A stretch of 34,453 nt of DNA, taken from IMG/VR virus record IMGVR_UViG_3300017991_000049, positions 192,001 through 226,453 of that record; one strand, written 5' to 3'. The stretch is from a virus. Of the stretch, positions 7,669-34,016 are shown piece by piece; the stretch's first letter is position 1; each line of letters begins with the position of its first letter. Below the pieces are notes generated by a model. The model made no database searches. It had not been told where the DNA came from and worked only from the letters and a program-made list of their open reading frames with translations. The position numbers and the translations under genes were made by a program.

Positions 7669-8703
7669 TCAGATCATGTTTGTTGCGATCTGGTGCAGCT
7701 CGTACGCTGCCTTCTCCGTCTGGTGATGGAAGAAGTCCGTCGGACGGAATAGCGGGCACTGCTGCTCAGGTGTCGCAGCGGATTCACGATACAGCTCGCT
7801 CAGCCACGTGTGGCGGAGGAACGCGATAAACCGCTGCGAGCCCCGCAAATCAGCCATGACTGGATCGCCCTCGGGCGCGTTCGGATCGCCTAGGCCAAGC
7901 TTGCGGCCCCATGTCCTCCAGCAGAAATCCCACGGGGCCATGCCCACCAGGTCGCTGCCCTCGACAGGATGCGGCGCGCCAAGCTCATAGCGATAGCGCA
8001 CCTTCTGCTCGGCTGCTCTGTTCTTCCAGCAGTTCAGCACGACCTTGCAGCGTTTGTGGTGCCGCCACGGTTCGCGTGTGCCGTACACGCCGGCCTGCGT
8101 TCGTGGGTTCAAGCCCAGCCACGCTTCCAGCTTGCCGAGACGATCTGGTGCGCACTGGTCTATGTACCAGCGCGGGTCCAGTATGTACGACAGCAGTCCT
8201 GCCACCGACAGTTTGTTGAGTGACTGGATGAACGATAGCGGACGCCACGCAGGATGGCCACGCAGCAGCTGCAAGACATCCACCTCAACTTCTTCGCCGT
8301 GGAGCACACTCTTCGACAGTGCGACTGCCAGGGCATAGGAGCGATAGTCGGACTCGACGACTTCGTGGAAACCACCCAAGCTGGGCGCTCGTGTGAAATC
8401 CCGCATAGCCAACAACATAGCTTCGGGGTTACGGCGATGCTTTTCAATACGCCCGACCAATGGCGTGCATACCTGCACGCTTTGCAGCTTGTCTTTCTGT
8501 TTGAGGTCGTACAACTGCGTGATCAATCTGGCGTTAGCGCACGTGCCTACTAACTGCACGCTATCCGCGCGCGTGAAGGCAGCGCTCTCGAGAAACGCTT
8601 CTGGAGACTCGCCAGAGCATCGCGTGGCGTAGTCTCCGTCGGCATACCAGATCTTTCCGCAGTGCGTATGCAGTTTCATTGTCAATGTGTCGATCGCTCT
8701 CAT
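7669..8703 (-). CDS. hypothetical protein, translationally coupled to sbcC
   Basis: 344-aa ORF. Its ATG at 8703 overlaps the SbcC stop (ATGA). No recognisable motifs. Confidence 0.5.
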   Translation of the reverse strand: MRAIDTLTMKLHTHCGKIWYADGDYATRCSGESPEAFLESAAFTRADSVQLVGTCANARLITQLYDLKQKDKLQSVQVCTPLVGRIEKHRRNPEAMLLAMRDFTRAPSLGGFHEVVESDYRSYALAVALSKSVLHGEEVEVDVLQLLRGHPAWRPLSFIQSLNKLSVAGLLSYILDPRWYIDQCAPDRLGKLEAWLGLNPRTQAGVYGTREPWRHHKRCKVVLNCWKNRAAEQKVRYRYELGAPHPVEGSDLVGMAPWDFCWRTWGRKLGLGDPNAPEGDPVMADLRGSQRFIAFLRHTWLSELYRESAATPEQQCPLFRPTDFFHHQTEKAAYELHQIATNMI

Positions 8704-10835
8704 GCAGCTGGCAGTTCGATTGTGTTGTCAAAATGGTGCGATATCCGCGGTTCGTGTGTAACGAACAGCACCTGCAGCCCGCGCTCATGCGACAGGTCAC
8801 GCAGGCGCTCCAGCGCACGCGGCAAGCTGTCGAGGTTGTGCTCGTCCAGGCCTGCTGTGGGCTCGTCCATAATCAGTACACCAACCTGACCCGCGAAGGT
8901 CGAATTGACGGTGATCCGAAATGCCATCGCAAGTACGATGCGCTCGCCGATCGATAGTCGTCGGTCGGGCTGCACCCGCACGCCGTCAAGGAACCTGGCT
9001 GTGAAACCTAGGCTCTCGTCCATCTCCACGCGGAAAGGCGCTTCGAACATGGAGAGCGCTTCGTTCACCTGTTCTAGCATCATTTCCACGTAGGTGTAGG
9101 ACACCATCCGCGGCGCTTCGTTGCGATGAAACACGCTACGCACGTCGGTCAGGTGCTGCACTACCTCACGGGTCTTCTGTCCTTGAGCCAACGTCTTGCG
9201 AACGTTCTCAATCTGCTCTTGGACAGCAACGCGCTTTGCGTGTGCAAGCGCACGCTCGCGTGTAAACTGCTCCAGTTGCCGTTGCTTGGCCAGTATATCG
9301 GCGTTGGCTGCTTGCGCCTCGTCATGCTGCGCCTTGGTGTGCCACGGCTGTAACGCGTTGTGGGCGTCCTGGGCCTGCTGCAGCGCCTCAGCGAGCTGCT
9401 TACACTCGCCTTCCAGTGAGGACAGCTGCAGGGCCTTACTGGTCTTCTCAGCTTGAACCTGCTGCAAAGCTTCCTGGAAATGCGAACGCTCGTTCAGCGT
9501 CTTTTGAACTTCCTCTTCGGAGGTCTCGGGCGGGCTACACGCTTCGATCGCCAGACGTCGTCCTTCCAGCTGACGCTGGTCAGACGCCTTGTGCTTCATC
9601 TGCACGATGTATGCAGAGTCAGCCCTGTCATACACGTCCCACGTGTCCCTCCGCAGCCGTAGCGGCGGCATCTGCGCCTGTATCGCCGCCAGCTCGTCCT
9701 CCAACTCGGCCTTGCGCTGGGCGCGCTCGTTCGCGCCGGGCATCTTCTGGCCGCATGTAGGACAGGTATCCGCCTGGCCCATGTCCAGCAGATTGATACG
9801 AATATTACCACACGTATCTTCGAGGTACTTCAGCTGCTGCGCCTCCTCGTCGCTCAGGCGTGGCTCTGGTGGCTGCACCGGCGCGACTGTGTTCTCCCAC
9901 GTAGCTTTGAACGTAGCTTCGTCACGCTCAAGTGCAGCCCGCGTGGCTGCAGCAGCATGGTGGGCTTTCCACTGATCGCGTGCCTCCTCGGCGTCTGCAC
10001 AGTCCGGCGCAATCGCGGCTAGCCCAGCTTCAAGGTCGGCTATTGCGGCGTCCAAGTCACGTAGCGGTTCAGCCGCCGCTTTGGCTGCAGCCTCTTTGGC
10101 AGTGTACCGCCCCTGCAGCTCTTCGACGCGCGCCATCGCCTGGCGTTCGTCGTTGTACTGCTGGATCAACGTCTGGTTGGCATGCAGCTCAGTCTCCGGA
10201 TGCTCTGGCAGCTCCAGCGCAGCAATGTTGGCGTCCGCACCGGCGATAGCCTCGTCGTGCGTAGCCGCTTGATCATTCAGCTCGTCCTCCGTCAGCAGCG
10301 ACGTCGGAATCTCGATGGCGCTGACGAACTTACCCAGCTGCTCGTACACGCGCTCGGCGTGCGCCACGCCGAACAGTGCCGCCAAGGAAGCGGCCCGCTC
10401 TGCCGGCGGTTGGTCAAACATCTCGTCGATCTTGCGCTGGCGCACAAAGATGTAGTCGGCGATCTGCTTCTTGGTGGCGCCCAGTCTGCCCCACAGTTCG
10501 GAATTGATCTCGCCTACCGACGTCCACCGCGCATCGTCGATGGTCAGCAGATTGGTAGTACCCTGCAAAGCACGACGGACATGCATCCGCGCGCCGTAGT
10601 GTATCAACCAAGCTTCGACGAAGGCTTCTGCGTTACCTGGCGTACCCTGACGGATATCGTCGGCCTTCTTGCGCTCACCGCCGGCGTCGCCGATCAGTGC
10701 AAGCTGTATGGCGCGCAAGATGTTGGTCTTACCAGCGCCGTTCGGGCCAACGAGCATGTTGAGCCCAGGAGTCAGCTCGAGAGTTAGATCCTCGTGCTGG
10801 CAGAAATTCGCTAGGTGGAGTCGTTCTATGATCAT
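8700..10835 (-). CDS. sbcC: SbcC/Rad50-like SMC-family ATPase
   Basis: N-terminal Walker A MLVGPNGAGKTNIL. Long coiled-coil with zinc-hook CPTCGQ. C-terminal signature LSIGERIVLAMAF, Walker B VLIMDEPTAGLDE, H-loop LFVTHE. Confidence 0.85.
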   Translation of the reverse strand: MIIERLHLANFCQHEDLTLELTPGLNMLVGPNGAGKTNILRAIQLALIGDAGGERKKADDIRQGTPGNAEAFVEAWLIHYGARMHVRRALQGTTNLLTIDDARWTSVGEINSELWGRLGATKKQIADYIFVRQRKIDEMFDQPPAERAASLAALFGVAHAERVYEQLGKFVSAIEIPTSLLTEDELNDQAATHDEAIAGADANIAALELPEHPETELHANQTLIQQYNDERQAMARVEELQGRYTAKEAAAKAAAEPLRDLDAAIADLEAGLAAIAPDCADAEEARDQWKAHHAAAATRAALERDEATFKATWENTVAPVQPPEPRLSDEEAQQLKYLEDTCGNIRINLLDMGQADTCPTCGQKMPGANERAQRKAELEDELAAIQAQMPPLRLRRDTWDVYDRADSAYIVQMKHKASDQRQLEGRRLAIEACSPPETSEEEVQKTLNERSHFQEALQQVQAEKTSKALQLSSLEGECKQLAEALQQAQDAHNALQPWHTKAQHDEAQAANADILAKQRQLEQFTRERALAHAKRVAVQEQIENVRKTLAQGQKTREVVQHLTDVRSVFHRNEAPRMVSYTYVEMMLEQVNEALSMFEAPFRVEMDESLGFTARFLDGVRVQPDRRLSIGERIVLAMAFRITVNSTFAGQVGVLIMDEPTAGLDEHNLDSLPRALERLRDLSHERGLQVLFVTHEPRISHHFDNTIELPAA

Positions 10836-11591
10836 TTACTTTCCATTGCGCTGGCGTGCGCGGGTTGTGTCTACTTTCCTGCTGGCACGCGTTTCGTCAT
10901 GGTCAAGTTCGAATATGTCGAGGGCGCCGCGGATCTCGGACCAGATCTTCTGCAGCTGCCCGTGGGAGCCACAGCCGGCGATTTGGTCCTCGAACAGCGC
11001 TACATCGTCTTCCAGCTTCTTGAGCTTCTTGCCGACGGGGTCTTCGCGGATGAGCGCCGTCAGTTGGCGCTTGCAGTGATCCCGCATTATGTTTGTCGCA
11101 GTGCCGGGATAGCGGTCGAAGGTGCCCTCGTCCTCGTCCTCGTCCTCGTTGCTGTGGTAGCGCCGATAGTTGTTGCGGCGATTGACATGGCTTTGCTGCA
11201 TGTCGGCCGATGGCAGGTCGGCGCGCTTACGCCCCTGCATCTTCTCGACTACGCCACCTTCCAATTCGCGGATCGCTGTATCGAGCTTGTCGCGCTCTTC
11301 ACGCAGGTCTTCCAGATCGACCATCATGTTTTCGACGCCAAAGTGCTCCTCGATGAGCCTCTGGGCCTCTACTACCAAGTCGCGTTTCCAAGTCGGCTTT
11401 TCGGCCTGAATCTGGTCGCGCAATTCCTGGGCACGGCTATCCAGCCGGTCCCGAAAGTGTTGCTTCTCGCTTACTGTCAGTCCCATAAAGTCGGTCTTTG
11501 TATATTCGAAGTAATTCTGTTTGGATGTCACGTGTTCCTGCCAAGCTGACGGCGTCTTCGCAGACGGCTGTAGGCTCAGCGTAGAACTCAC
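10836..11591 (-). CDS. hypothetical acidic coiled-coil protein inserted between sbcD and sbcC
   Basis: 251-aa ORF with GTG start. Contains a DEDEDEDE run and is predicted helical. Overlaps the sbcD 3' end by 155 nt unless it starts at the internal ATG at 11486 (50-nt overlap) or at 11327. Confidence 0.45.
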   Translation of the reverse strand: MSSTLSLQPSAKTPSAWQEHVTSKQNYFEYTKTDFMGLTVSEKQHFRDRLDSRAQELRDQIQAEKPTWKRDLVVEAQRLIEEHFGVENMMVDLEDLREERDKLDTAIRELEGGVVEKMQGRKRADLPSADMQQSHVNRRNNYRRYHSNEDEDEDEGTFDRYPGTATNIMRDHCKRQLTALIREDPVGKKLKKLEDDVALFEDQIAGCGSHGQLQKIWSEIRGALDIFELDHDETRASRKVDTTRARQRNGK

Positions 11592-12576
11592 GGATGCAGC
11601 CGGCTAGGCCGTCGTTCAGCACTACCTGAACGCGCCGCGCCGTATCGACTGCAACCTGCGCACTCTCCACAGGTACCGCCTTGAGGAACAGGTGCGCATC
11701 GCCTGTGACACGCGCCTCTATCCGCTCTCTGGCCTCCGGAACATCTTCCCTGTACCAGACACGGATTATGTTCGCAGACACGGACGCCGGAACGCCCACC
11801 TTCGGTATCCTCGCAGGATGCTGCCGCCAGCTGTCAATGAAAGCGTCCAGGTCTTCCTGGTCATTGATTCTGGCTTCGTAGTAGCCGCGTGTATGCAGCT
11901 GCACAGCCTCGGCCGTCAGATCGTCGTTCAGTATGAAAACGTTCTTTGTATGCGGCTCGCCGATATTCTGCATGCAGATCGATCCAGGCGAGATGATGCG
12001 CTGTTGTCCGCGCGTCTCGTCGATCGTCACATGGAAATCGCCGGTGAGGATGCAACGTGGAGACTTGGCCCAATGGAACCATGCGTCTCCGCGATCTTCG
12101 CCCATGAAGTCCATCCACACCTGGTGTGTGGCTAGGATATCGACGCCTTCCGGAACTGCCTCCAGCGCGGCGCGTACTTCATTGGGTGACTTGTAGTCCA
12201 GTCCGTAGATCCGGAGTCCAGTGCCTGGTATTTCCACCAGCTGCTCGTTGATATGCAGCGGATGTAGATGTAAGGCATGCAACAACGGCGGTGTTGACCG
12301 CTCGTGCTGGCCCTGCACGTACAGTACCTTGCGACCCTGCTGCTGGAACGTATCCAACGCCGAGCGCATCGTCTGCAGCGCATCCGATTGCTGTAGCTTC
12401 TGCTCGAATAGGTCGCCGAGCAGGATCACGTACGGAACATCATACGTATCCGCTATCTCGCAGATCTGTTTGATGCTCCACGCCGTATCCCCGCATAGGG
12501 TGTCCCGGCGGCTCCAAACACGGTCGTGTTTGCGCACATGCCAGTCTCCAGTTGCGAGCGCAATCGGCTTAGCCAT
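11437..12576 (-). CDS. sbcD: SbcD/Mre11-like nuclease (calcineurin-like metallophosphoesterase)
   Basis: N-terminus MAKPIALATGDWHV, ILLGDLFEQ, and further phosphoesterase motifs. AGGAGA SD before the ATG at 12576. Confidence 0.85.
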   Translation of the reverse strand: MAKPIALATGDWHVRKHDRVWSRRDTLCGDTAWSIKQICEIADTYDVPYVILLGDLFEQKLQQSDALQTMRSALDTFQQQGRKVLYVQGQHERSTPPLLHALHLHPLHINEQLVEIPGTGLRIYGLDYKSPNEVRAALEAVPEGVDILATHQVWMDFMGEDRGDAWFHWAKSPRCILTGDFHVTIDETRGQQRIISPGSICMQNIGEPHTKNVFILNDDLTAEAVQLHTRGYYEARINDQEDLDAFIDSWRQHPARIPKVGVPASVSANIIRVWYREDVPEARERIEARVTGDAHLFLKAVPVESAQVAVDTARRVQVVLNDGLAGCIREFYAEPTAVCEDAVSLAGTRDIQTELLRIYKDRLYGTDSKREATLSGPAG

Positions 12577-12960: not shown

Positions 12961-12989
12961 TTGCCTCGTTTGGGCGAAAAGGGTATACT
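12961..12989 (+). promoter_or_regulatory. sigma70-like promoter for csrA (TTGCCT-N17-TATACT)
   Basis: -35 TTGCCT at 12961-12966, 17-nt spacer, -10 TATACT at 12984-12989. Followed by AAGGAGG and the csrA ATG at 13019. Confidence 0.55.
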
Positions 12990-13018: not shown

Positions 13019-13198
13019 ATGATGCTGGTTCTTTCTCGCAAGACCGGTCAAAGAATACTGATCGGTGACGACATCACTGTTACGCTAGTACGCGTCGACG
13101 GTGACACGGTGCGTATCGGTATCGAGGCGCCTGAGACTGTGCGGATTCTCCGCGAAGAGCTCAAAAAGAAGCAACCTCGACAACCTGTAGCGCATTAG
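13019..13198 (+). CDS. csrA: CsrA/RsmA-family carbon storage regulator (RNA-binding translational regulator)
   Basis: 60-aa product MMLVLSRKTGQRILIGDDITVTLVRVDGDTVRIGIEAPETVRILREEL. It aligns with canonical CsrA ([48 protein letters not shown]) across almost its full length. Strong SD AAGGAGG. Lone plus-strand gene among minus-strand genes. Confidence 0.85.
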   Translation: MMLVLSRKTGQRILIGDDITVTLVRVDGDTVRIGIEAPETVRILREELKKKQPRQPVAH

Positions 13199-13487
13199 CG
13201 ATATCCGCAAAGAGTCGCTTCTTAGCGCATACTGCCAGCTTATGGGCCTGGGACACGCTCACGCAACGCACTGATTCGCGCTGCCCTGCTGCCTGTCCAC
13301 GGCCCGAGGCTGGCCAGTAGTCCGCCAGGTGTTTATCGCCGTACTTGAAACGCCAATGCTGGTCGTTGTCGCTCAGCGTGACAGTGATCTGCTCGAAGGC
13401 AAGCTCGCTCTGGAGCATTTCCAGTTCAGCTGTTGCTGACTGGAGCCGCTGTTTGCGGATCTGCTTCTTCTTGCTCATCTGCTGCAC
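13161..13487 (-). CDS. hypothetical small protein (doubtful)
   Basis: 108-aa ORF. Overlaps the hldE 3' end by 62 nt and is convergent with csrA, overlapping it by 38 nt. Lys-rich N-terminus. An internal ATG at 13418 would remove the overlap. Confidence 0.3.
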   Translation of the reverse strand: MQQMSKKKQIRKQRLQSATAELEMLQSELAFEQITVTLSDNDQHWRFKYGDKHLADYWPASGRGQAAGQRESVRCVSVSQAHKLAVCAKKRLFADIANALQVVEVASF

Positions 13488-14919
13488 AGGCTTTCGCGCG
13501 GATGTCGGTCGCGTGCGTATCGAACTCGAGCGTCGTCGTCATGATACGGCCGCCGACCTCCTCCATCGTCAGCGCTTCTGGAATCCGATCGGTCTTGCCG
13601 GCGTGCTCGGGGCCCTTGAACAGGACCGTCGGTACCAGATTGTGGATAAGTGACTTGGGTGTGTCTTCGTCGAACTTGATGATCGCATCGACGCACGGTA
13701 GCGCTGCCAAACTCGCGGCACGCGTGGCGTAGTCGTTGATCGGCTTGCTCTTGATGCGGGCGGCCGACTCGTCCGAATTCAACATGACGAGTAGGAAATC
13801 GCACTCTTTGCGCGCCTGCTCCAGCATGGAGACATGCCCAGGATGCATCAGATCGAAAACACCGTTGGCTACGCCGAAGTCGCCGCCGCTGACCATCATG
13901 GATGCGCGCAGCAGCATAGCAAAAGGCAGCTCTATCTTCTTGAGCTGATTGCCAGATACAATGGTCAGCCGCCTGTGTATCTGGTGCAGTGACACCGCGG
14001 ATGCGCCAGGGCGCTCTACCTGTATCGCTGCGGCCGTTGCTGCAAAGTGCAACATGGGCATCAAAGACATATCGGCAGCGACGCCATAGGTGAACGCTGC
14101 AGCAACAGTGTCGCCAGCACCGCACGAGTCGACCGCTAGTGCTGGCACAGCTGGCATCTCGGACGGCGTCTCGTTCGGGCGCACTATGAGCATACCGGCA
14201 GCGCCACGCGTCACGATGCAATGCACAGCGTGCAGTTCCTTGCAGACCGCCATAGCCGCCGAGCGTACGTCAGCAATCCGCGGGTCGGCGACTGCCGCAA
14301 GCACCTCATGCTCATTGGGCGTAATGATATGCGCACCACGATAGTGAAGCATATGCTTCGGCGTCGGGTCTACGACCACCGGTACTTTGTGTGCGCGCGC
14401 ATACTCGAAGATGACCTGGAGCGTACGCTCCGTGCAAATACCTTTGTCGTAGTCGGACACAAGGATCGCAAGTGGTTTCGCGTCGTCGACACACTTCATG
14501 AACATGTCGACCACCTTGTCCTCGACATTGGCCTTCGGGCGTGCGTCTATGTCGAAGCGAGCTACCAGACTGTCAGCTGCGTACACGCGGTGTTTGCAGG
14601 GCGTTTGGTAGTTCTTATCCGTGGCTACATACCGCGTCAGCAGCTCCGGTAGTTCCATGTTCAAGAAGTTCCGGCCGGCGGTGTCATCGCCTACGACGCT
14701 TACGAACGCCGTGGGCATCGCCATATGTACGAGATTGGCCATCGCGTTGGCGGCACCGCCCAAGCCAAGGAAGGGCGTACCAGGTGGCACGTCTATGACG
14801 GGAACTGCAGCGGTTTGGTCAAGCTGCTTCACCGTTCCCATGTAGTAGTGGTCCATAAGCACAGGTCCGACTACGACCACGCGGTCGCCTTCATCCTGTG
14901 CTGGGTGATTCGTCGTCAA
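13426..14919 (-). CDS. hldE: Bifunctional HldE/RfaE-like D-beta-D-heptose-7-phosphate kinase / heptose-1-phosphate adenylyltransferase
   Basis: N-terminal pfkB/ribokinase-like domain: VVVVGPVLMDHYY...GLGGAANAMANL and DSCGAGDTV. C-terminal cytidylyltransferase domain with HxGH motif: ANGVFDLMHPGHVSML...LNSDES...KFDEDTP...LFKG. Collinear with E. coli HldE over both domains. TTG start at 14919 preceded by GGAGAG. Confidence 0.85.
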   Translation of the reverse strand: MTTNHPAQDEGDRVVVVGPVLMDHYYMGTVKQLDQTAAVPVIDVPPGTPFLGLGGAANAMANLVHMAMPTAFVSVVGDDTAGRNFLNMELPELLTRYVATDKNYQTPCKHRVYAADSLVARFDIDARPKANVEDKVVDMFMKCVDDAKPLAILVSDYDKGICTERTLQVIFEYARAHKVPVVVDPTPKHMLHYRGAHIITPNEHEVLAAVADPRIADVRSAAMAVCKELHAVHCIVTRGAAGMLIVRPNETPSEMPAVPALAVDSCGAGDTVAAAFTYGVAADMSLMPMLHFAATAAAIQVERPGASAVSLHQIHRRLTIVSGNQLKKIELPFAMLLRASMMVSGGDFGVANGVFDLMHPGHVSMLEQARKECDFLLVMLNSDESAARIKSKPINDYATRAASLAALPCVDAIIKFDEDTPKSLIHNLVPTVLFKGPEHAGKTDRIPEALTMEEVGGRIMTTTLEFDTHATDIRAKACAADEQEEADPQTAAPVSNS

Positions 14920-15106
14920 TACTGCTCTCCGCTGTGACTGAGTCTGGATCTAGTGATACACGTCGCAGCCCACTGACTGCCACGGGCTTTGATGTGCATG
15001 TAGGGCAAATACGGTTACCAGCATGTTGCGACGCAAACGTCGTGCCACAGCGCAAACAGCGCCGCGGCTTAGCTGCTAATCTGTCATCCGCCCTGGGTTT
15101 TGCCAT
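14891..15106 (-). CDS. small zinc-ribbon protein (C-x2-C...C-x2-C)
   Basis: ATG at 15106 with a GGAG SD. RCLRCGTTFASQHAGNRICPTC. Overlaps the hldE start by 29 nt. Confidence 0.35.
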   Translation of the reverse strand: MAKPRADDRLAAKPRRCLRCGTTFASQHAGNRICPTCTSKPVAVSGLRRVSLDPDSVTAESSIDDESPSTG

Positions 15107-15118
15107 TTGTGGCTCCAA

Positions 15119-15790
15119 TCAGACCGTGCTCGGCACCAACCTGACGACCTTGTACGTGCCATCAGGATACGGAAACACGAAGTCTTCGTCCAGACGTTTG
15201 CACGGCGGCAGTGATGGATTTGGCACAGTGGGGTGCACACCCTCCTGAAGGATAAGAAAAGCGTCGATGTAGGCGCCGCCGTCCGCTGGTGCCGCGTTTA
15301 CGATCGCAATCGCGGCTACTGCTCCGTCGGCAAATGTGTGGTACCAGCCTCCAGCAATATCGCCGGGCGCCGCTACGTTACTCTCGAACCCGAGGCCTCG
15401 TCCAAGGATATCCGTGTACGTGGCCATCTCGGCTTGCGGCACGACCAACCGGGCCGTGTCGTAGCCTATGCGTTCGTAGAGCACACCATCTGCTAACAGA
15501 GGCACAAGCTTCTTGAGGCTTGCGCGAGCCAGATTGCGATCGAAGAACGCCTCCATGCACGCCACCTCGCTACCTTTGGGCATCTCTGCCGTAGCGGGCG
15601 GGGCTGTGGCCGACAACGGTGTCGTCAGCTCTTCGTCAAAACTAGTGATGAACGTCTCGAAGTCTTCCTGACTCGTATGATCGATCACTCGTAACAGCGC
15701 CAGCTGGTCGTCAGCTGACAGCTTATGCTTGTCGGTGAGCGCGAGTATGCGCTCAGCAGGAGTTAGATTTGACACGTTTGAAGTATCCAA
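15119..15790 (-). CDS. hypothetical protein
   Basis: 223-aa ORF. Helical N-terminus, Pro/Ala/Thr linker, ~140-aa C-terminal domain. No recognisable motifs. Confidence 0.5.
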   Translation of the reverse strand: MDTSNVSNLTPAERILALTDKHKLSADDQLALLRVIDHTSQEDFETFITSFDEELTTPLSATAPPATAEMPKGSEVACMEAFFDRNLARASLKKLVPLLADGVLYERIGYDTARLVVPQAEMATYTDILGRGLGFESNVAAPGDIAGGWYHTFADGAVAAIAIVNAAPADGGAYIDAFLILQEGVHPTVPNPSLPPCKRLDEDFVFPYPDGTYKVVRLVPSTV

Positions 15791-16583
15791 ATGGGAGTCT
15801 GAATCGCTTGCACCGGATGCTATTCAGGAACGTGGCCATGACAGCCGGGTCGCTCCGAAGCCATCCGGGCGGATATTTGAAAATACCTCCGATCAGCTTT
15901 GCGATCGTGAAGTCGCGCGGACGCTTGACGACCCGGAACGAGTCGCCGAGGTCTGCGTTCCAACCTGCTGGCATTACTGCCACGCAGCTGTGCATTCGCA
16001 GCCACCGGCCGCAGCTACCGTCCTTTGCCGTGGCCTTATAGACCAGCGGAGACAACGTGTACCAGTAGAAGCCGCCAAGGGCGTCCTTCATGTACTTGTC
16101 GCGGAACTGCTTCGGAAACCAGCGCTCCGTCATGAACACTTCGTCAAGGCTGGTGGTCAGCCCACCATCCGCGTCGAAGTAAATGTCCCGATGCTCCGTG
16201 CAGGTGTGCCGGTAGGTCACCAGCGTCGCCTTCCTGCGGCGTACCAGGTCACTCACCTTAGTGTAGATACTGCTGACACGCCTGGAGAAGCACCAAGGAC
16301 AGATGATTAGATTACACGTGGTTGTCCACGGGTCGACGTGGACGCAGCACACCGGGCAGTTGTGCGCGAAGACGAGCTTGCTGGTGCTGATCTGCGCCCA
16401 TTCATGCCGCGCAAGCTCTGCGCAGCGCATACGCCAGATCCCTCGCGCCTCCTGCAGCTTCGGTATGAGCCCATAGGGATAGGGCTTAACCTCGCCTACG
16501 ATCGGCGCGACGGTTGAAAGATATTCACACAGCATCCGCGGGGATTCTGATGGAATACTCAGCTTGGCATCAATCGTCCTCAT
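15753..16583 (-). CDS. hypothetical Cys-rich protein (putative zinc-binding)
   Basis: 276-aa ORF with HNCPVCCVHVD...ICPWCF and additional Cys/His. Function not assignable. Confidence 0.5.
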   Translation of the reverse strand: MRTIDAKLSIPSESPRMLCEYLSTVAPIVGEVKPYPYGLIPKLQEARGIWRMRCAELARHEWAQISTSKLVFAHNCPVCCVHVDPWTTTCNLIICPWCFSRRVSSIYTKVSDLVRRRKATLVTYRHTCTEHRDIYFDADGGLTTSLDEVFMTERWFPKQFRDKYMKDALGGFYWYTLSPLVYKATAKDGSCGRWLRMHSCVAVMPAGWNADLGDSFRVVKRPRDFTIAKLIGGIFKYPPGWLRSDPAVMATFLNSIRCKRFRLPFGYFKRVKSNSC

Positions 16584-17122: not shown

Positions 17123-17154
17123 AAAAAACCCCGGGCGCCCGAAGGCGCCCAGGG
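17123..17154 (-). terminator. Rho-independent terminator (minus strand)
   Basis: On the minus strand: CCCUGGGCGCC-UUCG-GGCGCCCGGGG (11-bp stem with one G-U pair and a UUCG tetraloop) followed by UUUUUU. Lies just after the stop of the 17168-17872 gene. Confidence 0.75.
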
Positions 17155-23005: not shown

Positions 23006-23035
23006 GGGTTCCTCCTAAATTTTAGAAATGCACCT

Positions 23036-23063
23036 TTGCGATCCCACGCAAATATGGTAGACT
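23036..23063 (+). promoter_or_regulatory. sigma70-like promoter TTGCGA-N16-TAGACT for the plus-strand nucleotide-metabolism block
   Basis: Lies in the 115-bp divergent intergenic region. An inverted repeat TTGCG-atccca-CGCAA overlaps the -35. Confidence 0.45.
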
Positions 23064-23120
23064 TTTAATATCGTGCAAGTGTGGCACGACGTCAGTTTCC
23101 AGTTCAGCATAGGAATCGTA

Positions 23121-24257
23121 ATGGCCAAGAAGACTTCTGCTGCGGCCCTGAGAGAGCTCAAGACGCTTGAGCGCTACTCTAAACTCAGTCTGGACGACAA
23201 GATCCGTCAAATCCGTGACGCGGAGACGAAGCTGGATCGCGAGCGCAGTAAGCACCGCGAAACCAAGCGTAAACTCCGGCAGGCGGAGACCGATCTTACC
23301 ATCAACGAAGAGAAGCTCGGTACTGTCCTGTGTATGCAGGACCACCTGGCTGATCGCAAAATCCCCGCCGCGAAGAAGCGCCGCGGGAAAGGCCAAGCCT
23401 CGGCAATCATCTGTTGCAATGATTGGCATGCCGAGCAGCAGGTTGCGCCCTCGCTGGTCAACGGACTCAACGAGTTCACCAAAGCGATTGCCAAGCGGCG
23501 CATCAAGCGCACATGGGAGCAAGCAGTATACTTGATCGAATTCGCTCGAAAGATCAGCAAGATCGACGAGGTCATCCTGTGGGCAGGTGGTGACCTCATG
23601 AACGGCATGATCCACGAGGAATATCAGCAGACCAACTGGGCTGGGCCGACAGACGCGGCCATTTTCGTACAGCAACAGCTGGTCGACGGTATTAAGTACC
23701 TTCTCAAGAACACGAAGTGCAAGAATCTGCGCTTCCTGGCGAACCACGGCAACCACGGCCGTGCCACCGAGAAGAAGCGCATCCACACGCAGTGGTCGCA
23801 CTCGTGGGAGTACCTCATCTACAACAACGTGGCCCAGGCGTTCGTTGGCGACAAGCGAGTCTCGTCGTTTATTGCCGACGGGCCGCTGCTCAACACGGAC
23901 ATCCAAGGGCACCTGTGTCGGTTCTCGCACGGTGACACCTTGAAGTTCCACGGCGGGCAGGCTGGGCTCATGGGGCCTGCCAACAGGGCGTTGCATCAAT
24001 GGAACGCGCATGGCCGCGCGGAATTGACCGTGATCGGCCATTTCCACCAGTTTCTCACAAAGCCCGGCTTCGTTGCCTGCGGTAGCCTGATCGGCTACGA
24101 TCCGTATGCAGCAGCTATCCGAGCGGAGGCCGAAGCGCCTACCCAGACACTGATCGTCATGGACGCCGAGCACGGCAACATCATGACTACCCGGATCTTT
24201 TGTGAGGACAAGCCTAATGCGAATTCGCACTGGAGCACCCCCCAGTTCTGCGGCTAA
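23121..24257 (+). CDS. calcineurin-like metallophosphoesterase with N-terminal coiled-coil
   Basis: Motifs IICCNDWHAE (DxH), GGDLMNG (GDxxN), LANHGNHG (GNHG), GHFHQ. ATG at 23121 follows AGGAA. The ORF-track GTG at 23073 lacks an SD. Confidence 0.7.
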   Translation: MAKKTSAAALRELKTLERYSKLSLDDKIRQIRDAETKLDRERSKHRETKRKLRQAETDLTINEEKLGTVLCMQDHLADRKIPAAKKRRGKGQASAIICCNDWHAEQQVAPSLVNGLNEFTKAIAKRRIKRTWEQAVYLIEFARKISKIDEVILWAGGDLMNGMIHEEYQQTNWAGPTDAAIFVQQQLVDGIKYLLKNTKCKNLRFLANHGNHGRATEKKRIHTQWSHSWEYLIYNNVAQAFVGDKRVSSFIADGPLLNTDIQGHLCRFSHGDTLKFHGGQAGLMGPANRALHQWNAHGRAELTVIGHFHQFLTKPGFVACGSLIGYDPYAAAIRAEAEAPTQTLIVMDAEHGNIMTTRIFCEDKPNANSHWSTPQFCG

Positions 24258-24819
24258 ACACATCTACCTGGACATGGACGGCGTGATGTGCAACGTGCAC
24301 AAAGCGGTGCTGGCCATGCATGGGCGGATGGACCTGCTCGATAGGATCACCAGTCATGACATGGAAGAAGCCATGGGCATGTCCTTCCAGCAGATCTGGG
24401 GTCCTGTCGTTAAGGCAGGCTACGAGTTTTGGTACGACCTCGAGCCGTATCCGTGGACGTTCGAACTGTGGGCGTGGGCCCACGAAGTAGGCAGCGAGAT
24501 CGGCATACTGAGCCGCCCGCTGATGTTCGAGTTCTTGGATGCGCATGAGGTCGGCTACTGCCTCCAAGGCAAAATGGCATGGCTGCGCAAATACTTCGGC
24601 CGTGACTTCTACGACTTCATATTCACGACCGGCAAGGGCGCAGTATCACAGCCCGGCGTCATCCTCGTGGACGACGACGCGCGCTACGAAGACGATTTCA
24701 ACGCCCGCGGCGGGCGCCAGATCGTCTTCCCACAGCCCTACAATCGATTTGCCGCCCAGTGCGTAGACCCTATGGACTGCGTACGGGCGCAATTTCAACG
24801 AATCGAGGACCAAACATGA
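24217..24819 (+). CDS. HAD-superfamily 5'(3')-deoxyribonucleotidase (NT5C-like)
   Basis: HIYLDMDGVMCNV (DxDGV motif I) and VILVDDDARY (motif IV). Stop overlaps the next ATG (ATGA). Confidence 0.65.
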   Translation: MRIRTGAPPSSAAKHIYLDMDGVMCNVHKAVLAMHGRMDLLDRITSHDMEEAMGMSFQQIWGPVVKAGYEFWYDLEPYPWTFELWAWAHEVGSEIGILSRPLMFEFLDAHEVGYCLQGKMAWLRKYFGRDFYDFIFTTGKGAVSQPGVILVDDDARYEDDFNARGGRQIVFPQPYNRFAAQCVDPMDCVRAQFQRIEDQT

Positions 24820-25331
24820 AGATTGCGGTTTGCGGCCATGGCCGCTGCGGCAAAGACACCGTCTCCAACTGGTTCGATTACAGCACATCCCTGTGCTATC
24901 ATGAAAGCACCAGCCAGGCGGCCGCCGCGCTGTGTTTCTCGCAATTACGCGAGAAATACGGCTATATCACCGTGGAAGAGGCGTTCGACGATCGCCACAA
25001 CCACCGGGAAGAGTGGGCCCAAATAATTTGGGCGCACAACGAGCCTGACGGTTTGACCCTGTATCGTGGTATGCTGGATACCAGCGACATCCTGAATGGC
25101 ATCCGCCGTGCCGGCGAGTTGCAAGCATTGCTGGCACACCAGATGCTGGACCTTACGATCTGGATCGAACGGGATGTCCCAAAGGATCCGTCATGCGAAA
25201 TCACCATCGACGATTGCGACATCGCGATCCCGAACAACGGCACTTTGGAGGAACTGTACCAGCGCTTGGAGCGGTTCTCCAAAGTGACCGGCTTGTTCGA
25301 GCCGGATGTGCACCATCGTCAATATCGTTGA
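24816..25331 (+). CDS. P-loop kinase resembling T4 gp1 deoxynucleoside monophosphate kinase
   Basis: MKIAVCGHGRCGKDTVSNWF matches the gp1 P-loop G-x-x-R-x-GKDT. ATG at 24816 is coupled to the upstream stop. Confidence 0.55.
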   Translation: MKIAVCGHGRCGKDTVSNWFDYSTSLCYHESTSQAAAALCFSQLREKYGYITVEEAFDDRHNHREEWAQIIWAHNEPDGLTLYRGMLDTSDILNGIRRAGELQALLAHQMLDLTIWIERDVPKDPSCEITIDDCDIAIPNNGTLEELYQRLERFSKVTGLFEPDVHHRQYR

Positions 25332-25340
25332 GGTGACCCG

Positions 25341-25919
25341 GTGGACATTGGCCTTGGTTGGTTATCGGACTTTGTGCGATGGGTGTCGCGAATCTTCCCG
25401 CGCGGCTTACACGTGGATGCCACGCAGGAAGGTGTGATGCTCACGCTCAGTAGAGCGAAGCGCATCAGGCCTGGCTTCCATATCTACTGGCCTCCCATCC
25501 AACGGCCGATGGTCCATCCGGTTAAGCGCGACTCTTTCGAAGTCGGCGTGCAGACTCTACCGCACAGATCCGAACGCCCGATTGGCATTTGCATCTCTGT
25601 TACTGTAGTCTACACGATTGGCGACATAATGAAAGCGCTGGTTGACACCTACAACTTCCCGTCGACCATCAAAGACCGAGCGCAGGGCGCTGTCATAGGC
25701 GCATGCATCGGCAAGACGATCACCGAACTAGCCGACAATCACCAGAAGATTAACGCGGCGCTAACACGCAGAATGCGTAAGGCGCTCGACAAATACGGCG
25801 TCGAAGTGGAAGAGGCATTCATGTCCGACTTCCACCTGTCCAACATGCATCGAGTACACGGCGGCACAACAGTCCTACCGATGGACGCTGCCGAGGAAGA
25901 AGAGGAGGAAGAGGAATGA
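25341..25919 (+). CDS. hypothetical protein with poly-Glu C-terminus (weak SPFH/band-7-like segment)
   Basis: GTG start at 25341 (alternative ATG at 25437). The segment INAALTRRMRKALDKYGVEVEEAFMSDF loosely resembles SPFH-domain proteins. Ends EEEEEEEE. Confidence 0.45.
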   Translation: MDIGLGWLSDFVRWVSRIFPRGLHVDATQEGVMLTLSRAKRIRPGFHIYWPPIQRPMVHPVKRDSFEVGVQTLPHRSERPIGICISVTVVYTIGDIMKALVDTYNFPSTIKDRAQGAVIGACIGKTITELADNHQKINAALTRRMRKALDKYGVEVEEAFMSDFHLSNMHRVHGGTTVLPMDAAEEEEEEEE

Positions 25920-33330: not shown

Positions 33331-33610
33331 TTTGTCTCGCCCTGACCGCCTCTTCGGCAGCCCTAAAGAACTGGGAGAGTCCGCGGCCTAGCACACCCGG
33401 CAGCTCAGCTGCTGTAGCGCCCAGGCGGCAGACTATAGATGGATCTTGCAAATCTCCGAAGGCCAAATGCGCCGGCACACCCGTAAGCTCTGGGGCGTAC
33501 AGCAGCGCGACGGCAGCGCCGTCCAGCTCCGGAAACTCCTCGATCAGCTGTCCGAACATTTCGTGCAGACGTGCATTGATCTCTTCGTCGAATCGCTTAC
33601 GTTCCGCCAT
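33224..33610 (-). CDS. hypothetical protein (doubtful)
   Basis: 128-aa ORF overlapping the RNase H start by 107 nt. Low-complexity C-terminus. Confidence 0.3.
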   Translation of the reverse strand: MAERKRFDEEINARLHEMFGQLIEEFPELDGAAVALLYAPELTGVPAHLAFGDLQDPSIVCRLGATAAELPGVLGRGLSQFFRAAEEAVRARQSDNRDENAHSGKEAQEAPASRTGQFGRPPRPPEDN

Positions 33611-34016
33611 CCGGCAATCGCTCCTTAATGAACCGCAGGATCTCAGCCCCTACCGCATCCCAGTCGAAGTATGGCCGACGGCCGTCCTCTGGGAAGATCA
33701 GCGGAGCGCCAGCTGCGGCGTCGTCGATGTAGTAGTGCGCGTATGCCTTGTTCGAAGTCGTCCAAGGTTGCGGGTTCTCATTCAGCAGATCGAACTCGAC
33801 GCCGACCGATTCGCAGTAATCGACAGCCTCGGTCAGCACACTGCCTTCTACCTGATTGTCGCTCCGCATGGTCCAGAGGATGAGGGTCGCCCCTGCTTCC
33901 TTGAACTTCTTCAACCACTCCAGCGCCTGCGGCACGGGTGGGCCAACATCGGGGAATCGATGCTCTACGATCGTGCCGTCGAAGTCGACGGCGATATACA
34001 CCTTACGTCCTGGCAT
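33597..34016 (-). CDS. HAD-superfamily phosphatase
   Basis: ATG at 34016 with an AGGA SD. VYIAVDFDGTIV (motif I DxDGT). The ORF track extends to 34076. Confidence 0.55.
   Translation of the reverse strand: MPGRKVYIAVDFDGTIVEHRFPDVGPPVPQALEWLKKFKEAGATLILWTMRSDNQVEGSVLTEAVDYCESVGVEFDLLNENPQPWTTSNKAYAHYYIDDAAAGAPLIFPEDGRRPYFDWDAVGAEILRFIKERLPDGGT

What the first reader, a model, noticed from the sequence alone, without database searches (positions are those of the whole stretch)
13426..14919. Complete bifunctional HldE (ADP-heptose biosynthesis) homolog in a phage replication-region context
Both the pfkB-type heptose-7-phosphate kinase domain (VVVVGPVLMDHYY, GLGGAANAMANL, DSCGAGDTV) and the heptose-1-phosphate adenylyltransferase domain (NGVFDLMHPGHVSML, LNSDES, KFDEDTP) are conserved and collinear with bacterial HldE. 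No GmhA or GmhB partner is present in this window. A phage has no obvious need for LPS-core precursor synthesis. Possible roles: supplying an activated heptose for glycosylating phage DNA or virion proteins, rewiring host LPS (receptor masking or superinfection exclusion), or producing a different nucleotide-sugar altogether. The small zinc-ribbon ORF (14891-15106) and the doubtful ORF 13161-13487 flank it.
Basis: partly seen in the sequence, partly recalled or inferred. Interest (0 to 1): 0.6.

Follow-up and report, generated by a model that had tools for sequence, protein, structure and literature searches.

The report
Virus-specific divergent HldE sugar-activating enzyme
A lineage of large uncultured phages carries, inside its DNA-replication gene block, its own fast-diverged copy of the bacterial enzyme HldE, which makes the activated sugar ADP-heptose; both catalytic centres are intact, but what the phage uses the sugar for is still unknown.

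Summary
ORF 13426-14919 (minus strand, 497 aa, TTG start with a GGAGAG ribosome-binding site) is a complete two-domain HldE homologue: PfkB kinase plus cytidylyltransferase-like adenylyltransferase, with all catalytic motifs intact.

It is not an ordinary HldE. It scores about half the NCBIfam equivalog cut-off. It belongs to a virus-only clade that is about 31% identical to bacterial HldE. About one third of the positions that are at least 90% conserved in bacterial HldE are replaced in this clade, often by residues that the clade itself conserves (lid motif SPE to DQT, R101 to Y, K179 to V/T).

The gene holds a fixed slot in the replication/recombination operon: Rep-like, unk223, Zn-ribbon, HldE-like, orf105, antisense CsrA, SbcD, SbcC, helicase. 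This holds in every relative examined. Two much more distant relatives keep a bacterial-type HldE in the same slot, so the window's version is derived.

I found no GmhA, GmhB, HldD or heptosyltransferase in about 60 kb of the same 226-kb contig, nor in the fetched loci of relatives. A small HAD phosphatase and a glyco-island near the terminase occur in this phage but not in its relatives.

Best reading: a phage-made ADP-beta-sugar synthase (ADP-heptose or a close analogue) that depends on host enzymes. The acceptor is unidentified. Moderately interesting; a new variant of a known kind.

The parts
13426..14919 (-). HldE-like bifunctional gene, 497 aa, TTG start
   Evidence: ORF. Pfam PfkB plus CTP_transf_like. 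NCBIfam HldE aligned full length at E=2.7e-78 but below the cut-off. The exact protein, P0001, is called on 226-kb contigs.
13969..14886 (-). N-terminal PfkB-type sugar(-phosphate) 1-kinase domain, residues 12-317
   Evidence: TIGR02198 rfaE_dom_I 9.9e-65. HldA 4e84 5.7e-28. The GG motif (G54 G55), N58, TPNxxE (N202/E205) and GAGD (D270) are kept across the clade. Lid motif is DQT instead of SPE, Y104 replaces consensus R, and K179 is V/T.
13492..13887 (-). C-terminal cytidylyltransferase-like adenylyltransferase domain, residues 345-476
   Evidence: TIGR02199 rfaE_dom_II 4.3e-35. HldC 5x9q 5.6e-20. HxGH (H359/G361/H362), NSD, K390, DEDTP and K435-G436 are kept. KGG is KGP, G385 is deleted, and the C-terminal STT motif is altered (motifs from PMC7993394).
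14925..14930 (-). Shine-Dalgarno-like GGAGAG just upstream of the TTG start (five bases between GGAGAG and TTG)
   Evidence: Read directly from the sequence.
14891..15106 (-). Small CxxC...CxxC zinc-ribbon gene, 71 aa from the ATG. Its 3' end overlaps the HldE-like start by 29 nt.
   Evidence: ORF. phrog_13335 1.1e-7, function unknown. Conserved in five of seven relatives at 35-58%. Called as 68 aa in relatives.
13161..13478 (-). orf105, a conserved gene of unknown function. It overlaps the last 53 nt of the HldE-like gene in another frame.
   Evidence: Called as 105 aa on L001. Conserved at 33-62% identity in seven relatives.
13022..13198 (+). Phage CsrA homologue, 58 aa, antisense to the operon. 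It converges on and overlaps the orf105 3' end.
   Evidence: Pfam CsrA is on record for the called 58-aa product. A sigma70-like site lies at 12961-12989. Present in relatives, including the distant L143 and L146.
15119..15790 (-). unk223, a conserved co-operonic gene of unknown function immediately upstream. It is a candidate functional partner, but this is untested.
   Evidence: Conserved at 28-51% identity in seven relatives. No PHROG hit and no PDB hit. The single-sequence AF2 model was unusable.
15753..16583 (-). unk276, a zinc-binding Rep_1/HUH-like putative replication initiator. Context only, not a sugar enzyme.
   Evidence: Family of 140 cluster representatives. 8 of 60 members hit Pfam Rep_1 and 4 of 60 hit Zn_Tnp_IS91. 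Four invariant Cys.
8700..12576 (-). SbcD-like (11437-12576), unk216 and SbcC-like (8700-10835) genes downstream in the same conserved block
   Evidence: phrog_77 SbcC 4.9e-36 and a weak metallophosphoesterase hit. Synteny is conserved.
33597..34016 (-). Small HAD-type phosphatase (BT0820-like, 139 aa, DxDxT at the N-terminus). It could act as an optional GmhB-like step in this phage, but it is not conserved with the HldE-like gene.
   Evidence: phrog_1238 5.7e-30. NCBIfam NF046079 4.6e-23, below the cut-off. The exact 139-aa product is on record. Absent from relatives. The family is widespread in unrelated phages.

Best explanation
The gene encodes a functional, virus-specific descendant of bacterial HldE.

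Proposed mechanism. The N-terminal PfkB domain phosphorylates the anomeric hydroxyl of a pyranose sugar. [quoted passage not shown] After removal of the distal phosphate, the C-terminal HxGH nucleotidyltransferase domain couples the beta-sugar-1-phosphate to AMP, giving an ADP-beta-sugar (ADP-heptose or a close analogue). The phosphatase would be host GmhB, or possibly, in this particular phage, its own small HAD phosphatase.

Expression and history. The gene is co-transcribed with the early/middle replication-recombination operon. An HldE gene entered this slot in an ancestor of a broad group of large phages. In the window's sub-lineage it then diverged strongly around the substrate lid and nucleotide pockets while keeping the catalytic residues.

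Use of the product. The activated sugar is presumably consumed by a phage-directed glycosylation whose glycosyltransferase and acceptor (phage DNA, virion proteins or host envelope) are not identified.

Shown: the architecture, the intact catalytic motifs, virus-specific clade membership, the conserved slot, the derived nature of the substitutions, and the absence of detectable pathway partners.

Inferred: the substrate, the product, dependence on host enzymes, and the downstream use.
For: Architecture and homology:
- Full-length HldE alignment with both domains.

Catalytic and ring-binding residues are invariant or nearly so in 16 clade members:
- GG, N58, D23, D156, NxxE and GAGD-D270.
- HxGH, NSD, K390, DEDTP and KG. 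Most predicted heptose-1-P-contacting motifs of HldC are retained.

The clade is under constraint and is old:
- The same slot is occupied in seven relatives, and the gene diverges at the same rate as SbcC and other neighbours.
- Three further divergent members show the same context.
- Distant relatives L143 and L146 (helicase about 40-44% identical) keep HldE plus CsrA before SbcD-SbcC, with bacterial-type residues at the diagnostic positions.
- NJ tree: clade plus L138 is supported 100/100; the all-phage bipartition 71/100.

The clade appears virus-only:
- None was found among 185,579 species-representative genomes.
- Identity to bacterial HldE is about 31%, against >=39% among the sampled bacterial HldEs.

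Precedents for the chemistry and for phage use:
- E. coli HldE alone turns mannose into ADP-beta-mannose, and its nucleotidyltransferase half accepts several beta-sugar-1-phosphates (PMC10948575).
- HldC accepts beta-glucose-1-P (PMC7993394).
- A phage kinase/phosphatase plus cytidylyltransferase plus glycosyltransferase makes heptosyl-5hmC DNA (bioRxiv 10.1101/2023.12.21.572611).
- Phage isomerase, kinase/nucleotidyltransferase and HAD enzymes make NDP-arabinose for DNA (PMC13326640).
Against: - It scores only about half the curated HldE cut-offs.
- 30 of 82 conserved kinase positions and 16 of 56 conserved nucleotidyltransferase positions keep the bacterial residue in fewer than half of the clade members. 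These include the 100%-conserved D18, S33/E35, V56, N288 and G385. Heptose-7-P and ATP specificity therefore cannot be assumed.
- No GmhA, GmhB, HldD or GT9 heptosyltransferase was found in about 60 kb of the same contig, nor in the fetched loci (+-10 kb around the HldE-like gene, the terminase or the helicase) of the relatives.
- None of the 51 viral contigs with GmhA-like genes belongs to this clade.
- No DNA glycosyltransferase, ThyA-like or TET-like enzyme was recognised in the regions seen.
- The host is unknown, so the availability of host GmhA and GmhB is an assumption.
- About 166 kb of the genome was not seen.
Confidence: 0.5

Rival explanations
1. Substrate switch (neofunctionalisation). 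In the window's clade the enzyme no longer uses heptose-7-phosphate. It activates a different sugar, for example a free hexose or heptose, in a partner-independent two-step route: sugar to beta-sugar-1-P to ADP-beta-sugar. It may also use a different nucleotide donor. This would explain why no isomerase or phosphatase partner accompanies it.
For: - The clade-specific replacements are conserved and sit at positions invariant in bacteria: SPE to DQT in the lid, R101 to an invariant Tyr, K179 to V/T, D182 to H, N288 to V/A, KGG to KGP, and deletion of G385.
- They are derived relative to the bacterial-type HldE of distant phage relatives in the same slot.
- The gene is an orphan across the lineage.
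- E. coli HldE already has the side activity mannose to ADP-beta-mannose (PMC10948575).
- Pfk-2's phosphate-binding Arg90 aligns within two residues of HldE position 101.
Against: - Loss of conserved basic residues in the kinase half is not statistically enriched (5 of 10 against 25 of 72, p=0.49).
- Distant relatives with canonical-type HldE are equally orphan, so orphan status does not require a substrate switch.
- Ring-binding residues inferred from ribokinase homology, and the predicted heptose-1-P contacts of HldC, are retained.
- I could not map the changed residues onto a ligand-bound structure, because the HldA paper is not held.
Confidence: 0.25
2. Plain auxiliary metabolic gene for the host envelope. 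The phage boosts or maintains ADP-heptose supply for host LPS inner-core synthesis during a long infection, or to alter receptors and exclude superinfection. No phage-specific acceptor is involved.
For: - Viral rfaE genes are listed as LPS-related AMGs in pelagimyophages (PMC7029224).
- Other viral contigs carry HldA/HldC-like genes with GT9-like, HldD-like, GmhA- or GmhB-like genes.
- Distant relatives keep a bacterial-type HldE.
- The adjacent, conserved phage CsrA points to host carbon and envelope reprogramming.
Against: - Extra ADP-heptose does not by itself change LPS structure without a transferase, and none was found.
- The gene sits in the replication operon rather than in the variable moron island.
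- The strong, directed divergence from cellular HldE in the window's clade is not expected if it simply duplicates the host enzyme.
Confidence: 0.15
3. The two domains act on a non-sugar small molecule. One option is a hydroxymethyl-pyrimidine or nucleoside-type substrate. Another is a nucleotide signal of a host defence system. In either case HldE is only the evolutionary source of the scaffold.
For: - The gene is placed among DNA-metabolism genes: NT5C, a dNMP-kinase-like protein, exonuclease, ligase and SbcCD.
- There is a weak Phos_pyr_kin similarity, E=0.03.
- Positions invariant in bacterial HldE are extensively remodelled.
Against: - HldE is by far the best full-length match, at 1e-78 against 0.03.
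- Sugar-ring and beta-sugar-1-P contact motifs are kept.
- No literature links ADP-heptose enzymes to defence signalling.
- There is no positive evidence for any alternative substrate.
Confidence: 0.07
4. A decaying or non-functional remnant of a captured host gene.
For: Low score against the curated HldE models and a long branch.
Against: - The reading frame is intact in more than 16 clade members.
- 48 columns are invariant, including all catalytic motifs of both domains.
- Position and length are conserved across highly diverged genomes.
- The start has a good ribosome-binding site.
Confidence: 0.03

Closest known systems
Bacterial HldE (RfaE), including the split forms HldA (B. cenocepacia, PDB 4E84) and HldC (B. 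pseudomallei, PDB 5X9Q). NCBIfam NF008454, TIGR02198 and TIGR02199.
   Same: - Same two-domain order and length, alignable end to end.
- Same catalytic motifs: GG, NxxE, GAGD and HxGH.
- Most predicted heptose-1-P contact motifs are kept: NG, NSD, K, ExTP and KG.
   Different: - Only about 31% identical, against >=39% among the sampled bacterial HldEs.
- Scores are about half the curated cut-offs.
- About one third of positions that are >=90% conserved in bacteria are replaced, including the ISPEAPVP lid signature.
- Encoded by phages in a replication operon, not in an LPS context.
- No gmhA, gmhB, hldD or waaC/F nearby.
Phage-encoded NDP-sugar supply pathways for DNA hypermodification. Examples are AfhE/AfhF-type UDP-arabinose synthesis (RB69, DLP3, HY126; PMC13326640) and the 'contig 53' heptose pathway giving heptosyl-5hmC (bioRxiv 10.1101/2023.12.21.572611).
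   Same: The chemical logic is the same: anomeric kinase, removal of the distal phosphate, then nucleotidyl transfer. The enzymes are phage-encoded and rely on host sugar phosphates. The contig-53 pathway also uses a 'cytidylyltransferase', as that paper labels it.
   Different: - Those kinases are APH-like and fused to an NTP-transferase or HAD domain, not PfkB-type.
- Those genes cluster with DNA glycosyltransferases and with base-hydroxylating or hydroxymethylating enzymes. None of these was found near this gene or in the 60 kb seen.
- No evidence of modified DNA is available here.
Viral 'rfaE/hldE' auxiliary metabolic genes and viral heptose cassettes: cyanophage and pelagimyophage annotations, and IMG/VR loci L019-L044.
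   Same: They are virus-encoded relatives of HldE domains.
   Different: - Most of them are single-domain, either kinase-only or nucleotidyltransferase-only.
- Several sit beside GT9-like, HldD-like, GmhA- or GmhB-like genes.
- The window's gene is a full fusion, is an orphan, forms its own clade and occupies a fixed replication-module slot.

Membership tests
HldE (bifunctional heptose-7-P kinase / heptose-1-P adenylyltransferase) | N-terminal PfkB kinase domain fused to a C-terminal cytidylyltransferase-like domain, collinear over the full length | tested here: met
   Pfam PfkB 51-308 and CTP_transf_like 350-475. NF008454 aligned 12-473 against 11-467 of 475.
HldE (bifunctional heptose-7-P kinase / heptose-1-P adenylyltransferase) | Reaches the curated equivalog score: NF008454 521 bits, TIGR02198 345, TIGR02199 181.5 | tested here: not met
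   263.7, 218.7 and 120.6 bits.
HldE (bifunctional heptose-7-P kinase / heptose-1-P adenylyltransferase) | Catalytic motifs of both halves: GG switch, NxxE, GAGD with the catalytic Asp, and HxGH | tested here: met
   G54, G55, N202/E205, G267-A-G-D270 and H359-x-G361-H362 are invariant or nearly so in the clade.
HldE (bifunctional heptose-7-P kinase / heptose-1-P adenylyltransferase) | Family-invariant non-catalytic residues: D18, the ISPEAPVP lid, V56, R101, K179, N288, G385, R388, KGGDY and the C-terminal G-x-S-T-T | tested here: not met
   The clade has P19, DQT, A59, Y104, V/T186, a variable position at 288 (V, A, I and others), a deletion, K or a variable residue, KGPE(L/H) and D-x-H-T-T.; 103 bacterial HldEs were used as the reference.
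HldE (bifunctional heptose-7-P kinase / heptose-1-P adenylyltransferase) | [quoted passage not shown] | tested here: inconclusive
   N352-G, N381-S-D, K390, D-E-D-T-P and K435-G are kept. The G after the first K is deleted and the second G of KGG is Pro. The published contacts are docking predictions.
HldE (bifunctional heptose-7-P kinase / heptose-1-P adenylyltransferase) | Works within a GmhA / GmhB (/ HldD / heptosyltransferase) pathway encoded by the same genome | tested here: not met
   None was found by tblastn with E. coli proteins in the window, in L045/L052/L054 (about 60 kb of the contig) or in relatives' loci. A GmhA scan of IMG/VR returned no contig of the clade. About 166 kb of the genome was not seen, and host genes may supply these steps.
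HldE (bifunctional heptose-7-P kinase / heptose-1-P adenylyltransferase) | Enzymatic conversion of D,D-heptose-7-P to HBP, and of heptose-1-P plus ATP to ADP-heptose | not testable with these tools
   Requires biochemistry or complementation of an hldE mutant.
Phage NDP-sugar pathways feeding DNA glycosylation (Afh-type arabinose; contig-53 heptose) | Phage-encoded anomeric kinase plus nucleotidyltransferase activities | tested here: inconclusive
   Both activities are predicted from the domains. The kinase fold (PfkB) differs from the APH-like kinases of the described systems, so the two are analogous, not homologous.
Phage NDP-sugar pathways feeding DNA glycosylation (Afh-type arabinose; contig-53 heptose) | Clustered DNA glycosyltransferase and a base-modifying enzyme (ThyA-like hydroxylase/hydroxymethylase, or C5-MTase plus TET) | tested here: not met
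   None was recognised by PHROGs, Pfam or NCBIfam in the window or in the flanking 26 kb, nor next to the gene in relatives. Many ORFs remain unannotated.
Phage NDP-sugar pathways feeding DNA glycosylation (Afh-type arabinose; contig-53 heptose) | Glycosylated base in virion DNA | not testable with these tools
   Needs LC-MS of nucleosides from virions. The phage is known only from metagenomes.

The most novel reading that the evidence does not exclude
In the window's sub-lineage the captured HldE has been retooled into a partner-independent synthase of a non-canonical ADP-linked sugar or related compound. The product would be used, together with the always-adjacent unknown genes (unk223, the Zn-ribbon protein, orf105), for a replication-coupled modification of phage DNA, for instance a new glycosyl base, or for neutralising a host defence. 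That would make the block 'unk223, Zn-ribbon, HldE-like, orf105' a new DNA-modification or counter-defence module.
Probability: 0.12. Interest if true: 0.8.

Novelty: new variant of a known kind. Interest (0 to 1): 0.45.

Why it matters
If the enzyme is active, a whole lineage of large environmental phages (contigs of roughly 40 to 226 kb, seen in many metagenome samples) makes its own ADP-activated sugar as part of its core replication programme rather than as a sporadic 'moron'. That points to a glycosylation step essential to the phage, whose target is unknown. Heptosylated and arabinosylated phage DNA were discovered only recently.

The natural series also helps. Distant relatives carry a bacterial-type HldE and the window's clade carries a remodelled one. 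This series could be used to work out what determines sugar and nucleotide specificity in HldE, which is itself an antibiotic-adjuvant target and the source of the innate-immune agonist ADP-heptose.

The constant pairing with a phage CsrA hints at coordinated rewiring of host carbon and envelope metabolism.

Tried and rejected
1. Megablast of 10 kb against GenBank phages gave no match. tblastn found only matches of 37% identity or less over the aligned part, or single-domain relatives.
2. The HAD phosphatase at 33597-34016 as an obligate GmhB substitute: rejected. It is absent from all relatives that keep the HldE-like gene. Its family is widespread in unrelated phages, and the 'phosphoheptose isomerase' label cannot be right for a HAD fold.
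3. The glyco-island next to the terminase (GT-A, CTP_transf_3, methyltransferase, sulfotransferase) as the consumer of the product: not supported as a general explanation. It is specific to this phage; only one relative has the glycosyltransferase.
4. Loss of a 7-phosphate site inferred from lost basic residues: no statistical support, p=0.49. Alignment to Pfk-2 Arg90 is only approximate.
5. unk276 as a sugar enzyme: rejected. Its family has Rep_1 and IS91-Zn hits.
6. Profile searches of unk276 and unk223 against PDB sequences gave nothing significant.
7. Single-sequence AlphaFold of unk276 and unk223 gave pLDDT 35 and 41, unusable, so no fold searches were run.
8. A concatenated query of four neighbour proteins in the last homologue search returned nothing. 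That search was wasted.
9. Host inference failed. The terminase has no relatives in species-representative genomes, and the clade alignment found only hits at 30% identity or less.
10. The HldA structure paper (PMC3585733) is not held, so kinase substrate contacts could not be taken from the literature.
11. No tRNA and no Rfam family was found in the window. The promoter and terminator scan was not above shuffled expectation, apart from a plausible terminator at 17129-17144 and a promoter-like site before CsrA.
12. No literature links ADP-heptose to anti-phage defence.
Full report
**1. Observation**

The TTG start at 14919 has a GGAGAG Shine-Dalgarno-like sequence at 14925-14930. It also aligns with the ATG-started 'MTT...' N-termini of relatives.

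- Pfam finds PfkB (residues 51-308, E=4e-35) and CTP_transf_like (350-475, E=5e-15).
- NCBIfam aligns the HldE equivalog model end to end (E=2.7e-78), and both half-models match too. All three scores are only about half to two-thirds of their curated cut-offs: 263.7 against 521, 218.7 against 345, and 120.6 against 181.5 bits.
- The closest solved structures are the split enzymes HldA (4e84, 5.7e-28) and HldC (5x9q, 5.6e-20).

G+C content around the gene matches the rest of the window.

**2. Context**

The window is part of a 226.5-kb metagenomic contig. It has no near relative among deposited phages. Around the gene lie:

- a primase, a DnaB-like helicase, a second helicase, SbcC and an SbcD-like protein;
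- an exonuclease, an NT5C deoxyribonucleotidase and a dNMP-kinase-like protein;
- an NAD-dependent ligase and a GHKL ATPase.

Just left of the window are a UDG-fused PolA and a UvsX-like recombinase. The upstream neighbour unk276 belongs to a family of 140 cluster representatives. Of 60 members scanned, 8 hit Pfam Rep_1 and 4 hit the IS91 zinc-binding domain, so it is probably a Rep/HUH-like initiator. 'Phage replication-region context' is therefore correct.

The two small flanking ORFs are conserved genes:

- The Zn-ribbon ORF (14891-15106; phrog_13335) overlaps the HldE-like start by 29 nt.
- orf105 (13161-13478) overlaps its last 53 nt and is 33-62% identical in seven relatives.
- Between orf105 and the next operon gene, on the opposite strand, lies a 58-aa CsrA homologue (13022-13198).

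**3. A virus-specific clade in a fixed slot**

The protein database holds the exact protein plus about 15 relatives at 37-60% identity. Scores then drop to bacterial HldEs at 37% identity or less.

- Clade members are on viral contigs of 44-195 kb. No clade member was found in 185,579 species-representative genomes.
- The clade is about 31% identical to bacterial HldE, whereas the sampled bacterial HldEs are >=39% identical to one another, mean 59%.
- In seven relatives the block is syntenic: unk276, unk223, (Zn-ribbon), HldE-like, orf105, (CsrA), unk129, SbcD, unk216, SbcC, unk344, helicase.
- The HldE-like gene diverges at 32-54% identity, like its neighbours (SbcC 34-53%). Three further divergent members show the same slot with no sugar genes.
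- A scan with the conserved helicase found more distant phages, with the helicase about 40-44% identical. L143 and L146 also have an HldE-like gene plus CsrA directly before SbcD-SbcC.

**4. Residue-level analysis**

I compared the clade against 103 bacterial HldEs, in which 138 columns are >=90% conserved. The clade keeps 73 of them, and its consensus residue differs at 45.

Kept:
- the catalytic and ring-binding set (D22, G51-G52, N55, D151, N195/E198, G-A-G-D264);
- the nucleotidyltransferase set (HxGH, NSD, K384, D-T-P, K431-G432);
- most heptose-1-P contact motifs predicted for HldC (PMC7993394).

Changed, and largely fixed within the clade:

| Position in E. coli HldE | Bacterial residue | Clade residue |
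|---|---|---|
| 18 | D | P |
| 33-35 | S-P-E | D-Q-T |
| 56 | V | A |
| 101 | consensus R | invariant Y |
| 179 | K | V/T |
| 182 | D | H |
| 288 | N | variable (V, A, I and others) |
| 385 | G | deleted |
| 388 | R | K or variable |
| KGGDY motif | KGGDY | KGPE(L/H) |
| 461 / 463 | G / S | D / H |

The distant phage homologues L143 and L146 have the bacterial residue at most of these diagnostic positions. They are 34-38% identical to bacterial HldE but only 27-29% identical to the window's clade. In an NJ tree the clade plus L138 is monophyletic in 100 of 100 bootstraps, and all phage sequences form one bipartition in 71 of 100.

The simplest history is one old capture of a canonical HldE into the replication module of a broad phage group, followed by accelerated, directed divergence in the window's sub-lineage.

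I tested whether conserved basic residues, a possible 7-phosphate site, are preferentially lost. They are not (5 of 10 against 25 of 72, p=0.49). Pfk-2's phosphate-binding Arg90 aligns within two residues of position 101, which is suggestive only. I could not obtain the HldA-substrate contact list.

**5. Pathway partners**

tblastn with E. coli GmhA, GmhB, HldD, WaaC and WaaF found nothing in the window, in the 26 kb of the same contig outside it, or in any locus of the lineage. A GmhA-pattern scan of IMG/VR returned 51 contigs, none from this clade. By contrast, more distant viral HldA/HldC-like loci do carry GT9-like, HldD-like, GmhA- or GmhB-like genes.

Two leads in this phage turned out not to be obligate partners.

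- **The HAD phosphatase.** A 139-aa HAD phosphatase lies at 33597-34016 (phrog_1238 'phosphoheptose isomerase', 5.7e-30; BT0820-family, 4.6e-23).
- **The glyco-island.** A roughly 6-kb island beyond the right edge encodes a GT-A (Nucleotid_trans), a CTP_transf_3 protein, a methyltransferase and a sulfotransferase next to the GpA-type terminase.
- **Why they are not obligate.** Relatives whose terminase is 76-80% identical and which keep the HldE-like gene lack the HAD and nearly all of the island. In those relatives the island ORFs I scanned had no sugar-related Pfam hit; most had no hit at all.
- **The HAD family is not heptose-specific.** It is common in unrelated phages, including Ackermannviridae, Listeria phages, crAss-like phages and Ralstonia jumbo phages.

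**6. Mechanism**

- Shown: a full, constrained, two-active-site HldE-type enzyme.
- Established knowledge: HldE's kinase makes the beta-anomeric 1-phosphate and its HxGH domain makes the ADP-beta-sugar. E. coli HldE can even convert free mannose to ADP-beta-mannose on its own, and its nucleotidyltransferase half accepts several beta-sugar-1-phosphates (PMC10948575; PMC7993394).
- Inferred: the phage enzyme makes ADP-heptose or a close analogue in the infected cell, using host GmhA and GmhB. It is expressed with the replication genes, and its product feeds an unidentified glycosylation.

Phage-encoded sugar activation for DNA glycosylation has direct precedents. These include heptosyl-5hmC (bioRxiv 10.1101/2023.12.21.572611) and the arabinose pathway (PMC13326640). 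However, no DNA glycosyltransferase or base-modifying enzyme was recognised in the 60 kb seen.

Rivals:
- a substrate switch in this clade;
- a plain LPS-directed auxiliary gene, as viral rfaE is usually annotated (PMC7029224);
- a non-sugar substrate;
- gene decay, which the conservation pattern refutes.

**7. Comparison and novelty**

The protein works like HldE and descends from it. It fails two membership criteria I could test (curated score, family-invariant residues) and lacks the pathway context. I therefore file it as a virus-specific HldE-like subfamily rather than as an HldE equivalog.

Viral rfaE annotations and phage NDP-sugar pathways are known. New here are:
- the fixed position in the replication operon of a whole phage group;
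- the constant companion CsrA;
- the derived remodelling in one sub-lineage.

This is a new variant of a known kind.

**8. Limits**

- The host is unknown.
- unk223 and orf105 remain without any fold or family assignment.
- Substrate specificity cannot be decided from sequence alone.

Noticed in passing
window 13022-13198 (+): A phage-encoded CsrA homologue (58 aa) lies antisense within the replication operon and converges on orf105. It has a sigma70-like site at 12961-12989. It is kept next to the HldE-like gene even in distant relatives (L143, L146).
   Followed up: partly
L054 8902-15206 (same contig; equals window coordinates about 37,000-43,200, beyond the right edge): A variable island beside the GpA-type terminase encodes a rare GT-A (Nucleotid_trans) glycosyltransferase with only 3 homologues in 5.8 billion proteins. 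It also encodes a CTP_transf_3 (CMP-sugar-synthetase-like) protein, a Methyltransf_24 protein, a sulfotransferase and three unknowns. It is absent from relatives, except for the glycosyltransferase in one.
   Followed up: partly
window 33597-34016 (-): A small capless HAD phosphatase (BT0820-like). Its PHROG and RefSeq name, 'phosphoheptose isomerase', looks like a propagated misannotation. The family occurs in Ackermannviridae, Listeria phages, crAss-like phages and Ralstonia jumbo phages.
   Followed up: partly
window 15753-16583 (-): unk276 has four invariant Cys and belongs to a family of 140 cluster representatives, some of which hit Rep_1 and the IS91 zinc-binding domain. It is a possible rolling-circle-type initiator in a genome that also has PolA, a primase and a DnaB-like helicase.
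   Followed up: partly
L052 11152-14373 (same contig, left of the window): A 1073-aa DNA polymerase A with an N-terminal UDG-family domain. In a sister contig (L053) the gene is interrupted by an HNH endonuclease ORF. A UvsX-like recombinase lies at L052 15937-17349.
   Followed up: no
window 23022-24263 (-) against 23073-24257 (+): Two nearly full-length overlapping ORFs lie on opposite strands. The plus-strand one is the real exonuclease (phrog_284, 2e-36). The 413-aa minus-strand ORF is a shadow ORF.
   Followed up: partly
window 24202-25919 (+): A short plus-strand cluster inside the otherwise minus-strand region: an NT5C 5'(3')-deoxyribonucleotidase, a dNMP-kinase-like protein and a Band_7/SPFH protein. 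This is a nucleotide-pool-editing gene set and could hint at non-canonical DNA, but it is not diagnostic.
   Followed up: no
window 30476-32293 (-): A 605-aa protein with an N-terminal GHKL (HATPase_c_3) ATPase domain and weak MutL/restriction-enzyme-like similarity. Function unknown.
   Followed up: no
window 17129-17144 (-): A plausible intrinsic terminator (GC-rich hairpin plus a T-run) between unk251 and unk125. It may mark the start of the transcription unit that includes the HldE-like gene.
   Followed up: no
L058-L069 against L005-L017: Between the same pairs of phage genomes the large terminase is 76-80% identical, while replication-module proteins, including the HldE-like protein, are only 32-60% identical. 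The two modules evolve at very different rates, or there is modular exchange.
   Followed up: no
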